DNA of 64,000 bases, from the NCBI GenBank assembly GCA_050230475.1, contig JBFLGF010000113.1, positions 1 to 64,000 on the forward strand, in the 5' to 3' direction. The first letter of the stretch is position 1, and the number at the start of each line of letters is the position of its first letter. Below, piece by piece: positions 45,613 to 53,705 of this stretch. The position numbers and the translations under genes were made by a program. The stretch comes from Ancylonema sp. Its lineage: Eukaryota. The notes under the pieces were generated by a model. It worked only from the letters and a program-made list of their open reading frames with translations. It was not told the origin of the DNA and did not search any database.

Positions 45613-45720
45613 TAGCACTTCTCTACACAACAATTGTGCTGGTCAGGTTCGAAGGGTATTGTGTCAGCCTCACCTGATAACAGCAATGATGCTGCTACCA
45701 GCTGAAGCACCCCTAGCGCC
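45613..45720 (-). promoter_or_regulatory. TPP riboswitch aptamer 3 of the THI1 3' UTR (distal, partly degenerate)
   Basis: GGCGCUAGGGGUGC-P3-GGCUGACACAAUACCCUUCGAACCUGACCAGCACAAUUGUUGUGUAGAGAAGUGC; substitutions in the CUGAGA and GCGUAGGGAA consensus motifs. Confidence 0.8.
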
Positions 45721-45833
45721 AATCAAACCTATAATTACTTCACACCAAATCCCGCCCGCTAGGAAGTTGGGCAAGTGGCTCTCCCCCTCAACTGACAACA
45801 ACGGAGTTACTGCTACCAGCTGATGAAAACACA

Positions 45834-45941
45834 TAGCACTTCCCTACGCAGCAATTGTGCCGGTCAGGTTCGAAGGGTATTGTCTCAGCCTCACCTGATG
45901 ACAGCACTGATGCTGCCACCAGCTGAAGCACCCCTAGCGCC
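45834..45941 (-). promoter_or_regulatory. TPP riboswitch aptamer 2 of the THI1 3' UTR
   Basis: GGCGCUAGGGGUGC...GGCUGAGACAAUACCCUUCGAACCUGACCGGCACAAUUGCUGCGUAGGGAAGUGC; full TPP consensus with P1-P5 pairing. Confidence 0.95.
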
Positions 45942-46090
45942 ACACAAAATATAAATAAATTTCATACCACATATCTCCATACCTTTGCCTGCTAGTCAGT
46001 TACATCGGCCATAACTCCGCCTCAACTGATAGTAACAGAACTGCGCTACCAGCTGATCATCCCTACCACACAACAATGCAAGAACACACA

Positions 46091-46197
46091 GACGCTTCCC
46101 TACGCAGCGATTACGCCGGTCAGGTCCAAAGAGTATTGTCTCAGCCTCGACTGAAAGCAACATTACTGTTGCTGACAGTGGAAGCACCCCTAGCGCC
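46091..46197 (-). promoter_or_regulatory. TPP riboswitch aptamer 1 of the THI1 3' UTR (proximal)
   Basis: P1 GGCGCU/AGCGUC; GGGGUGC; long P3; CUGAGA; ACCUGA; P5 CGGCG-UAAU-CGCUG; GCGUAGGGAA. Confidence 0.95.
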
Positions 46198-46496
46198 GTT
46201 GTGCAAACAAAGAAGTCTGACCTGAAGGTATGTCCCCAACCATGATGCGGGTCAACCTGGGTTATCAACAAGCGGAATGCCGACCAGATGAGTTCCGAAA
46301 TTACTGAATGATGTCTACACCCAGGAACTGACGTTGAGCCGACCAGCAACTACACTACATGAAGGGGTCCGACAAATTTACAGTCAAAGATTACAAACAA
46401 CTCTCTCCGAACACAGCACCTGACATATCTGATCGTTCCACACTGCTACGATTCAACCACTGCCCTGCGATCACAATCAATGTCTTCCATCATCCT

Positions 46497-51700: not shown

Positions 51701-52809
51701 AGGTCCTGGAACTGAACAAGAGTCTGCTCAGCTTGTTAAGCTTGCACCTATCACAAGACAAGGTGTATGGACAGTTTCGTAACATGCCATGGTGCTGATA
51801 TTTTATGTGTCGCTTTTCCGAAACTCCTCTCACATCATGAATCTGGTCTGTGTCTTATTCCCACCCTTTACTGCGTTTCCCACCCACAGGAACATCTTGG
51901 GCTTCCCAACCGGGACGACGTCAAAGCTGGTGTGATTGCCTACAAGATCGCGGCTCATGCCGCAGACCTTGCCAAGCAGCACCCCCATGCTCAGGCGTGG
52001 GACGATGCGCTGAGTAAAGCGAGGTTTGAGTTCCGATGGAGAGACCAGTTTGCTCTGGCATTAGATCCCACCACTGCCCAGGTCAGAAAGCTTGTCAAGC
52101 TGGCAGGAAAGGGGCAATGTCGGTTTTGGATAACATCTTCCTCCTGCTCACTTTCTTCCCATGTCCATCATGAACGCTAAGTTTCATCCTTCATCGTCGA
52201 TGTTTTCGAAACCGAAAGGTCTTTGCTGTCGATTCCTGTCAGGCACAAGCAGTTGTTGATTTCTGAATCCGTACTGTGTGCAGGCCTTCCACGACGAGTC
52301 TCTTCCTCAGGACGGTGCCAAGCTGGCTCACTTTTGCTCCATGTGTGGTCCCAAGTTTTGCTCCATGCGCATCACAGATGACATCCGCAAGTACGCTGCA
52401 AGCAAGGGGTACGGCACACCAGAGGAGGCTGTACAGGTGGGCCACACTGCATGCTCGATCCCCAATCAACGTAGCAGATGGCACTTGTTCATTGTAGTGT
52501 GTACCAATCCCTCAGCTGCAGTTTTTCTTTTGTTGAGATTATGAAGGAAGTTGATACGGGGAAGGGAGGTATGGGAGCCTCTGTGCCTTGCTGCAGCATC
52601 ATCGCTGTGGTGCTTTTTTTTTGGTGCTGCCCTGTTTCTGAAGTGAGGTGGCAGCATCGGGCTGGGTGCAGAAAGGGATGGAGGAGATGAGCGCAGAGTT
52701 CCTGGCGAGCAAGACAACAATCAGCGGGGAGCAAGAGAAGGGAGGCGAAATCTATCTTCCAGAGTCGTATGTCAGTGAAAAGGCAATGGCAGTGGAGAAG
52801 GTGTACTAG
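48760..52809 (+). CDS. THIC: Phosphomethylpyrimidine (HMP-P) synthase THIC; 11 exons (48760-49085, 49263-49390, 49569-49813, 49979-50167, 50466-50537, 50809-51129, 51363-51438, 51569-51702, 51890-52081, 52284-52436, 52672-52809)
   Basis: [70 protein letters not shown] and Fe-S motif [11 protein letters not shown]. Confidence 0.97.
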
Positions 52810-53447
52810 CTCCCACTGATTGACTAGTTGGCAGGTAAGTCTCGGATGCTCTCTCGTACCTCTCTTTCCCACTGTCTTTGTAGTGAGGAATTCTATCTGA
52901 GGTAAGATTGGCTGGATATTTTTAAAAGGCGTTGTAAAAAAAATCCCCTTTTTTTTTTAACATGCCCTTGCGTTTCCGCATCTGTGGTGCTACTTGACCA
53001 TTTTGGGCCATTATTTAATTATATATATTATTTTTCTATTTTGTGCTATGATTTTATGTGCGTGTACCTGTTTATTGTCTCTTTTGCAGTGAAGGGCAGC
53101 AGACACAAGTGGATTTGCCGTATGCTGCGTCAGTTAGTTTCAAGACTTGACGCCATGGTTTTCGCTGGCATGTATGAGAAACCCTTTTTTGGAGTTGGAG
53201 TATGCAGGAGATTTTGTTTTTGCTACGAGGCCATTGATTGCTTGCGACTAGAATCGGTGGAACGCAAACCCGTGAGACAATGAGCAAATAGACCAAATTT
53301 TGTGTGCTAAAAAAAACGAGGGAGTATCGCGGACTTTTGATCTGACCGACGACCGTGACCTTCCACTCTGCTTCCAGGTCCGGAATGAAGTCACATATCT
53401 GCATGAAAACCTACGGTGTAAGTTAACCTACTCGTTTGTGAAGTGAG

Positions 53448-53556
53448 GGCACTAGGGGTGCTGCAGCTGGCAGCATCAAAAAAATGATGCTGTCAGTTGG
53501 GGCTGAGACTAAACCCTCACTACCTGACCAGCATAATTGCTGCGTAGGGAAGTGCC
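53448..53556 (+). promoter_or_regulatory. TPP riboswitch aptamer 1 of the THIC 3' UTR
   Basis: P1 GGCACU/AGUGCC; GGGGUGC; 15-bp P3; CUGAGA; CCCU..ACCUGA; P5 CAGCA-UAAU-UGCUG; GCGUAGGGAA. Confidence 0.95.
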
Positions 53557-53600
53557 TTTTCTTTTTTTTTTTCTTTTTTCTTTTCTTTCTTTATCATCAT

Positions 53601-53705
53601 GGCACTAGGGGTGCTTCAGCTGGTAGCAGCTGCTAGCCGCTATCAGTTGCGGCTGAGACTATACCCTCACTACCTGACCAGCATAATAGCTGCGTAGGGA
53701 AGTGC
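53601..53705 (+). promoter_or_regulatory. TPP riboswitch aptamer 2 of the THIC 3' UTR
   Basis: GCACUAGGGGUGC...GGCUGAGACUAUACCCUCACUACCUGACCAGCAUAAUAGCUGCGUAGGGAAGUGC. Confidence 0.93.

What the first reader, a model, noticed from the sequence alone, without database searches (positions are those of the whole stretch)
45691..53630. THI1 and THIC aptamers share an identical 26-nt tract reaching into variable P3
Seen: CTAGGGGTGCTTCAGCTGGTAGCAGC is identical in THI1 aptamer 3 (45716-45691, minus) and THIC aptamer 2 (53605-53630). All copies share a CAGYUG...CAGKUG-like P3 base and CUGAGAC. The two arrays are inverted repeats ~7-8 kb apart. Known: P3 is the least constrained part of TPP aptamers. 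Inference: one gene gained or homogenised its riboswitches from its neighbour (gene conversion or local transfer), which suggests clustering helps riboswitches spread.
Basis: partly seen in the sequence, partly recalled or inferred. Interest (0 to 1): 0.72.

Follow-up and report, generated by a model that had tools for sequence, protein, structure and literature searches.

The report
Tandem thiamine riboswitch arrays, shared stem
Two neighbouring vitamin B1 genes of a plant-lineage organism, likely a green alga, each end in a row of repeated, predicted vitamin-sensing RNA switches; the 26 letters shared by two of these switches are real but likely reflect a common ancestor preserved by selection rather than recent copying between the genes.

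Summary
The 26-nt identity is real, but it is likely the family consensus, not a conversion scar. Twelve letters are aptamer core. The 11-nt P3 arm recurs unchanged in 4 of 8 P3 hairpins examined, two of which have lost the ligand core. P3 changes are partly compensatory and the apex is divergent. No site unites the two copies alone; run test p=0.052 uncorrected, incongruence p=0.15. A diverged contig from an ice metatranscriptome holds the same 27 letters in a tandem (one study, gene and species unproven). Cassava P3 differs, and 0 of 15 database matches were aptamers, so the stem looks lineage-specific; an old copy between the two genes stays likely, and a role for clustering is untested. 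The larger feature: head-to-head THI1 and THIC whose 3' regions carry 3 and 2 whole TPP aptamers plus 5 decayed or partial copies, predicted to control 3' UTR splicing as in land plants. Splicing and binding were not shown. The scan earlier noted a twin-aptamer case in a yeast THI4 (unchecked), not this locus. New variant of a known kind.

The parts
47470..48084 (-). THI1 (thiazole synthase) exon 1, ATG at 48084; gene model of 4 exons, 359 aa (47330-47127, 46898-46803, 46661-46497 follow)
   Evidence: Pfam Thi4 E 6e-60; GT-AG model; joints in RNA contigs at all three introns, approximately placed
46497..46661 (-). THI1 last coding exon, stop ends at 46497
48085..48759 (.). 675 nt between the two start codons (head-to-head; shared promoter region is inferred)
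48760..52810 (+). THIC (HMP-P synthase) coding region, 11 predicted exons
   Evidence: Pfam ThiC E 2e-46 and 2e-15 on two exons; GT-AG at 10 coding introns; six of them seen as GT..AG joints among the listed rows
52835..53089 (+). predicted first 3' UTR intron of THIC, 24 nt after the stop
   Evidence: donor 7 of 7 consensus positions, acceptor AG; no RNA support
46080..46201 (-). THI1 aptamer 1 (whole; divergent P3)
   Evidence: Rfam TPP 53.8 bits, E 2.4e-8, just under gathering 54.3
45955..46071 (-). THI1 decayed copy d1: P3 hairpin 46055-46023 kept, ligand core lost
   Evidence: own model E 0.3
45824..45945 (-). THI1 aptamer 2 (whole)
   Evidence: Rfam TPP 57.1 bits
45780..45826 (-). THI1 decayed copy d2: P3 hairpin 45822-45789 kept, ligand core lost
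   Evidence: own model E 0.013
45603..45724 (-). THI1 aptamer 3 (whole length, core damaged: CUGACA, broken P4 pair, altered GCG motif)
   Evidence: Rfam TPP 38 bits, E 1.9e-4
45691..45716 (-). 26-nt tract, THI1 copy
45510..45583 (-). THI1 decayed copy d3 (3' half recognisable)
   Evidence: own model E 2.3e-4
45382..45493 (-). possible decayed copy d4, not distinguishable from chance by score, in register with the array
   Evidence: own model E 2.5
53444..53567 (+). THIC aptamer 1 (whole)
   Evidence: Rfam TPP 57.7 bits
53597..53717 (+). THIC aptamer 2 (whole), preceded by a long pyrimidine run (U fraction 0.65) before the P2 AG
   Evidence: Rfam TPP 61.3 bits
53605..53630 (+). 26-nt tract, THIC copy
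53731..53826 (+). THIC partial copy 3: 5' half to CUGAGAC, internal loss of P2'-P5, remnant of the 3' end
   Evidence: own model E 1.4e-4
46215..46227 (-). candidate regulated 5' splice site of THI1 (GT at 46221; 7-nt complement to P4 of aptamer 1); alternative GT at 46419
   Evidence: predicted only, duplex energy not beyond background
53405..53449 (+). candidate donor sites (GT at 53418 and 53443) and 8-nt complement to the THIC-specific P2'-J2/4
   Evidence: predicted only

Best explanation
The two genes carry tandem arrays of TPP-aptamer copies that likely descend from one ancestral aptamer, likely copied between the genes long ago, and the identical 26 letters are likely that ancestor's P1/P2 core and P3 base preserved by selection, not a recent conversion. 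Shown: the arrays, the identity, its spread over several copies, gene-specific 3' cores and base-paired P3 arms. Inferred: each array grew by tandem duplication and loses copies by decay (birth and death). Predicted mechanism, by analogy with land-plant THIC: without TPP the P2'-J2/4-P4 part of the first aptamer pairs with an upstream donor site and blocks splicing; with TPP the donor is freed and joins the AG at the start of an aptamer's P2 (letters 3-4 of the tract), giving a long unstable 3' UTR. The nearest donors lie too close to aptamer 1's own AG for an intron, so aptamer 2's AG would serve, which would give the tandem a division of labour. The gene-specific cores would be adapted to each gene's own donor, while the 5' part (acceptor, P2, P3 base) has the same job in both genes and so stays alike.
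For: Tract = majority state: 11-nt 5' arm unchanged in 4 of 8 P3 hairpins and one off in 2 more (d3 and d4 left out because their 5' arm is not recognisable). Between the two tract carriers: 0 of 14 differences in the 5' arm, 5 of 8 in the apex, 4 of 15 in the 3' arm, 6 of 21 in J3/2-J2/4. P3 helix in 5 whole aptamers: 17 pairs, 9 invariant, 3 with changes on both sides, 92.9% of cells paired. Of 12 informative columns, 6 unite the two THIC copies against all THI1 copies and none unites THI1 a3 with THIC a2 alone. Run test for that pair p=0.052, one of 10 pairs; ILD p=0.15. Run X3 record 2 (165 nt) has an aptamer with 11 differences in 106 nt from THIC a2, a spacer that does not lay on the window, then a second start identical over 53604-53630; the abundant relative in these runs differs at 231 of 1555 THIC coding letters in seven of the listed pieces. 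Literature passages: the AG of P2 is the acceptor in green algae and plants (PMC9544697; cassava form III junction in the supplement of PMC5853225); P4-P5 masks the donor (PMC3597705; PMC10226581); THI1 3' UTR riboswitches in non-seed plants (PMC11521341).
Against: THI1 a2 and a3 are closer overall to THIC a2 (81.9, 81.0%) than to THI1 a1 (78.3, 75.5%); on P3 alone the best tree joins a1 with THIC a1 by one step (24 against 25); one column in the tract splits a2+a3+THIC a2 from a1+THIC a1, and one P5 column joins a3 with both THIC copies. Both tests have little power on 5 short sequences. The X3 contig is short, from one study, not tied to a gene or species, and 6 of its 11 differences are not placed. 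THI1 a3 has a damaged core yet an unchanged P3 arm, and fungal P3 stems could be shortened with little effect (PMC3597705 passage), so plain aptamer function does not fully explain sequence-level conservation. Donor-masking energies were not beyond background. No splice joint in either 3' UTR was among the listed rows.
Confidence: 0.65

Rival explanations
1. Recent or repeated short-patch gene conversion between the two inverted arrays copies the 5' part of the aptamer between THI1 and THIC, while the 3' cores stay gene-specific.
For: 26 of 26 identity starting one base after a gene-diagnostic site; run test p=0.052; THI1 a2/a3 closer to THIC a2 than to THI1 a1; P3-only tree prefers a cross-gene grouping by one step; the damaged a3 and the core-less d1/d2 keep the arm. 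Repeated conversion in both lineages could also preserve the tract.
Against: No state unique to the pair; conservation covers both arms but skips the apex, unlike a contiguous tract; compensatory pairs; ILD p=0.15; same 27 letters on a diverged contig.
Confidence: 0.2
2. The P3 base is a lineage-wide trait of all TPP aptamers of this algal group, inherited in unlinked genes as well, so that the head-to-head cluster played no part in its origin.
For: P3 stem length is reported as relatively consistent within a species across algal riboswitches (PMC4260697 passage); unlinked status is unknown for the X3 contigs; the two cassava THIC paralogues keep similar P3 (PMC5853225).
Against: THI1 and THIC are unrelated genes, so an alignable P3 needs one copying event at some time; cassava P3 is unlike it. 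No zygnematophyte, charophyte or bryophyte aptamer sequence could be read here.
Confidence: 0.12
3. The identity is an assembly or chance artefact.
For: The window holds 3 N and many repeats.
Against: Flanks on both sides differ and each copy folds with its own 3' arm; 26 nt is short for a collapse; chance about 1e-6; the tract is on an independent RNA contig.
Confidence: 0.03

Closest known systems
Land-plant 3' UTR TPP riboswitches of THIC and (non-seed plants) THI1 (PMC11521341 section 8; PMC10226581, PMC5853225, PMC9544697 passages)
   Same: Aptamer class, 3' position, both genes controlled, AG in P2, an intron right after the THIC stop, candidate donors with complements in the aptamer
   Different: Several aptamers per gene instead of one, decayed copies between them, genes head-to-head, a P3 sequence unlike cassava's; splicing not shown here
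Two TPP aptamers in Saprolegnia NMT1 5' UTR introns (PMC5882874 passage)
   Same: Eukaryotic aptamer duplicated within one gene; function of the pair unknown
   Different: Oomycete, 5' UTR, two copies, one gene; no cross-gene sharing reported in the passages seen
Bacterial tandem and triple TPP riboswitches (PMC12452182 abstract and passages)
   Same: Two or three TPP aptamers in a row on thiamine genes, thiC included
   Different: 5' leaders acting on transcription or translation, not spliceosomal 3' UTRs; survey covers prokaryotes only
Concerted evolution / birth-and-death of tandem repeats (recalled concept)
   Same: Near-identical neighbours (THI1 a2/a3 92.5%), decayed copies, 221-256 nt dimer period
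   Different: Cross-gene exchange is not demonstrated

Membership tests
TPP riboswitch aptamer (RF00059) | Score at or above Rfam gathering (54.3 bits) | tested here: met
   3 of 5 whole copies pass (61.3, 57.7, 57.1); THI1 a1 53.8 and a3 38.0 do not
TPP riboswitch aptamer (RF00059) | CUGAGA pyrimidine-binding motif and GCG pyrophosphate motif | tested here: met
   Both present in 4 of 5 whole copies; THI1 a3 has neither intact
TPP riboswitch aptamer (RF00059) | P1-P5 fold | tested here: met
   95.9% of 170 cells paired, 4 pairs with changes on both sides (structure taken from Rfam and these sequences, so biased); fold z -2.1 to -6.1
TPP riboswitch aptamer (RF00059) | Binds TPP and switches | not testable with these tools
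   needs in-line probing or a reporter
Plant-type 3' UTR splicing riboswitch | Located 3' of the stop of THIC/THI1 | tested here: met
Plant-type 3' UTR splicing riboswitch | Acceptor AG in the P2 5' strand | tested here: met
   AG present at 6 of 6 aptamer starts; use as acceptor not shown
Plant-type 3' UTR splicing riboswitch | Upstream donor masked by pairing with the P4-P5 side | tested here: inconclusive
   7-8 nt perfect complements at donor-like sites (45 and 137 of 5000 shuffles, windows chosen after inspection); duplex energies within background
Plant-type 3' UTR splicing riboswitch | Thiamine-dependent alternative splicing and 3' end choice | not testable with these tools
   only contigs of one study, almost no cover of the arrays
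Gene-conversion tract | Contiguous identity longer than expected for the pair | tested here: inconclusive
   pairwise p=0.052, uncorrected for 10 pairs; rate differences between helices and loops violate the test
Gene-conversion tract | Derived states shared only by donor and recipient | tested here: not met
   0 of 12 informative columns unite THI1 a3 and THIC a2 alone
Gene-conversion tract | Different tree inside and outside the tract | tested here: inconclusive
   P3 tree differs by one step, ILD p=0.15
Gene-conversion tract | Aptamers group by species, not by gene, across relatives | tested here: inconclusive
   one diverged contig keeps two THIC-type J2/4 letters and the tract; no THI1 aptamer of a relative could be read

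The most novel reading that the evidence does not exclude
The P3 base is a second, sequence-specific RNA element (for example a binding site for a splicing or 3'-end factor) that works apart from TPP sensing, which is why hairpins that lost the ligand core keep it almost letter for letter; the head-to-head THI1-THIC cluster seeded both arrays by a local inverted copy, and in each array one aptamer senses while the next supplies the splice acceptor.
Probability: 0.2. Interest if true: 0.72.

Novelty: new variant of a known kind. Interest (0 to 1): 0.45.

Why it matters
TPP riboswitches are the only validated eukaryotic class, and plants are described with one aptamer per gene. Arrays of several aptamers on both branch-point genes of thiamine synthesis, with live and decaying copies side by side, give a natural test of how riboswitches duplicate, move between genes and die, and of whether tandem aptamers sharpen splicing control. 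The conserved P3 base in core-less hairpins questions the view that P3 is free. The 26-nt identity alone does not show that clustering spreads riboswitches.

Tried and rejected
No whole genome is held for this window, so other copies in the genome are unknown. Pattern scans for the first 19 letters of the tract (one position free): 9 metagenome and 6 prokaryote-genome loci; none is an aptamer by Rfam (13 of the 15 given; the two left out repeat contigs already given) or by core motif (15 of 15); no algal locus was recovered. An idea that the conserved YCAG in the P3 3' arm is the acceptor was dropped as the main reading, because papers place the acceptor at the P2 AG and the CAG is explained by pairing. 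Cross-copy P3 pairing was not predicted (at most 0.01). Donor-masking energies were within background. RNA contigs near-identical to the window end at 46276-46295 in 4 of 4 runs and do not cover the THI1 array; one study and contigs only, so no 3' end is claimed. A small covered stretch within 45874-46160 in run X3 could not be resolved. The THI1 tree does not place the organism beyond a clade with two unnamed proteins (the first try, dropped the window row through a wrong start coordinate). Primary papers Bocobza 2007, Wachter 2007 and Welz and Breaker 2007 are not held; supplements of PMC11521341 (table S5, 17 THI1 aptamers) and PMC4260697 (table S2) could not be read and bear directly on how widely this P3 is conserved.

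Full report
Observation. The 26 letters at 45716-45691 (minus) and 53605-53630 (plus) are identical and are the longest exact match between the two arrays. Rfam finds five whole TPP aptamers: THIC a1 57.7 and a2 61.3 bits, THI1 a2 57.1, a1 53.8 and a3 38.0, against a gathering score of 54.3. The claim that all copies share the P3 base and CUGAGAC is too wide: THI1 a1 and the THIC partial copy differ at 4 and 5 of 11 arm positions, and a3 reads CUGACA.

Setting. The window is eukaryotic. THI1 (Pfam Thi4; four exons, 359 aa) and THIC (Pfam ThiC) lie head-to-head with 675 nt between the start codons. Named THI1 relatives are 80-87% identical over the mature part, the best being zygnematophyte-labelled and bryophyte proteins; two unnamed proteins are 99% identical over the mature part of exon 1 and form the only supported clade with it. 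Four RNA runs of one study, labelled ice metagenome, hold a near-identical organism at low depth and a more abundant relative. A zygnematophyte alga is my reading; that glacier-ice algae belong to this group is recalled, and the tree does not prove it.

A model built from the five whole aptamers also hits a THIC copy with an internal deletion (E 1.4e-4) and THI1 remnants d3 (2.3e-4), d2 (0.013), d1 (0.3) and d4 (2.5; not separable from chance) among 39 matches up to E 10. On THI1 the order is a1, d1, a2, d2, a3, d3, d4, with whole copies 256 and 221 nt apart. d1 and d2 match a2 at 33 and 31 of 56 positions after P3, against a mean of 26 and a maximum of 32 for 300 random pieces, yet keep 21 and 20 of 22 P3-base letters and 10-11 of 11 pairs.

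Is the tract a conversion scar? Twelve of its letters are core, shared by 5 of 6 aptamer starts. The first 11 P3 letters are identical in 4 of 8 hairpins examined and one off in 2 more (d3 and d4 left out). Between the two carriers the differences are 0 of 14 in the 5' arm, 5 of 8 in the apex, 4 of 15 in the 3' arm, 6 of 21 in J3/2-J2/4 and 5 of 34 in P4-P5-P1'. Of 12 informative columns, six unite the THIC copies against all THI1 copies, and none unites the two carriers alone. The run test gives p=0.052 for this pair, one of ten; the incongruence test between P3 and the rest gives p=0.15. P3 shows 3 pairs changed on both sides among 17. Against my reading: a2 and a3 are closer to THIC a2 (81.9, 81.0%) than to a1 (78.3, 75.5%), the P3 tree prefers a cross-gene grouping by one step, and both tests are weak on five short rows.

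Outside evidence. In run X3 a 165-nt contig lays on 53604-53709 with 11 differences (5 placed: one in the apex, four in the core, one of them breaking CUGAGA), then, after a spacer that does not lay, starts again with 27 letters identical to 53604-53630; a second contig matches 53600-53630 with one difference (the other three runs gave nothing). The 135-nt period resembles the window's 133 nt from a2 to the partial copy. If this contig is from the abundant relative, which differs at 231 of 1555 THIC coding letters in seven listed pieces, an unchanged arm has a chance of roughly 0.005 to 0.0005 at an assumed neutral difference of 0.3-0.4 per site, and 0.09 at 0.15 (computed for 15 sites; the piece holds 14 P3 sites). 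The contig is not tied to a gene or species, so it may also be a third locus; either way the tract exists outside these two arrays. The stem is not universal: none of 15 collection matches was an aptamer, and both cassava THIC P3 stems look unrelated by eye (supplement passages of PMC5853225).

Mechanism. Passages of PMC3597705 and PMC10226581 describe masking of a 3' UTR donor by the P4-P5 side without TPP, and splicing to a long unstable UTR with TPP; PMC9544697 and the cassava junction place the acceptor at the AG of P2. That AG is in the tract and present at 6 of 6 starts, so the tract overlaps the predicted acceptor, P2 and the P3 base. Candidate donors with 7-8 nt complements lie just upstream of each first aptamer; they are too close to its AG for an intron, while THIC a2 has a long pyrimidine run before its AG, which suggests that copy 1 senses and copy 2 supplies the acceptor. 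More distant donors (46419, 53378) would allow the single-aptamer plant layout. All of this is predicted: energies are within background and no 3' UTR joint was listed.

Known work. THI1 3' UTR riboswitches in non-seed plants: PMC11521341 (passages and section 8; supplement unreadable). Two aptamers in Saprolegnia NMT1: PMC5882874 (passages). Double and triple TPP riboswitches in Bacillota: PMC12452182 (abstract and passages). P3 length consistent within species: PMC4260697 (passages; supplement unreadable). Passages of PMC7390266, PMC12633428, PMC12371167 and PMC10043782 added background only. Ten searches listed no paper whose title or abstract start concerns aptamer arrays in a streptophyte, a head-to-head THI1-THIC pair, or conversion between riboswitches; 'riboswitch + Zygnematophyceae + thiamine' and 'riboswitch + concerted evolution + eukaryot' gave 0 papers. 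Subscription papers, including the two 2007 primary reports, were not available. The scan holds no note on this genome and one unchecked note on twin aptamers after a yeast THI4.

Verdict. The identity is real; recent conversion is possible (0.2) but not shown; shared ancestry kept by selection is likelier (0.65). The arrays themselves, and the P3 hairpins that outlive their ligand cores, are the part worth following. New variant of a known kind, interest 0.45.

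Noticed in passing
window 48085-48759: THI1 and THIC, the first enzymes of the two branches of thiamine synthesis, are head-to-head with 675 nt between start codons; a shared promoter is possible. No paper on such a pair was listed.
   Followed up: partly
window 46055-46023 and 45822-45789 (minus): P3 hairpins keep 20-21 of 22 stem-base letters although the rest of the aptamer has decayed to near-random identity; unexplained.
   Followed up: partly
window 45895 and 45674 region (minus): In THI1 a2, a3 and d3 the P3 3' arm reads as an acceptor-like CAG followed at once by a donor-like GTGAG.
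   Followed up: no
window 54171-58086; 40650-40750; 44470-44760: hAT-like transposon remnant behind the THIC array (DUF659 E 8e-6, hAT dimer E 4e-4, both below Pfam cut-off); related GC-rich end repeats lie on the other side of the cluster.
   Followed up: partly
window 52827-52840 and 52880-52888: The strong donor after the THIC stop and a 9-nt stretch in that intron are also complementary to the THIC-specific J2/4-P4, 600-700 nt away; a long-range pairing is possible.
   Followed up: partly
window 53948-54105: 79-nt tandem duplicate, 99% identical, just behind the THIC array.
   Followed up: no
window 41584-41896: 313-nt (AT)n run.
   Followed up: no
window 3585-4790, 14775-15131, 26761-27303, 29705-31528, 36830-37780: Ankyrin ORF, expansin C-terminal exon, AP2-like ORF, LTR-type reverse transcriptase remnant, copia-type gag.
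   Followed up: no
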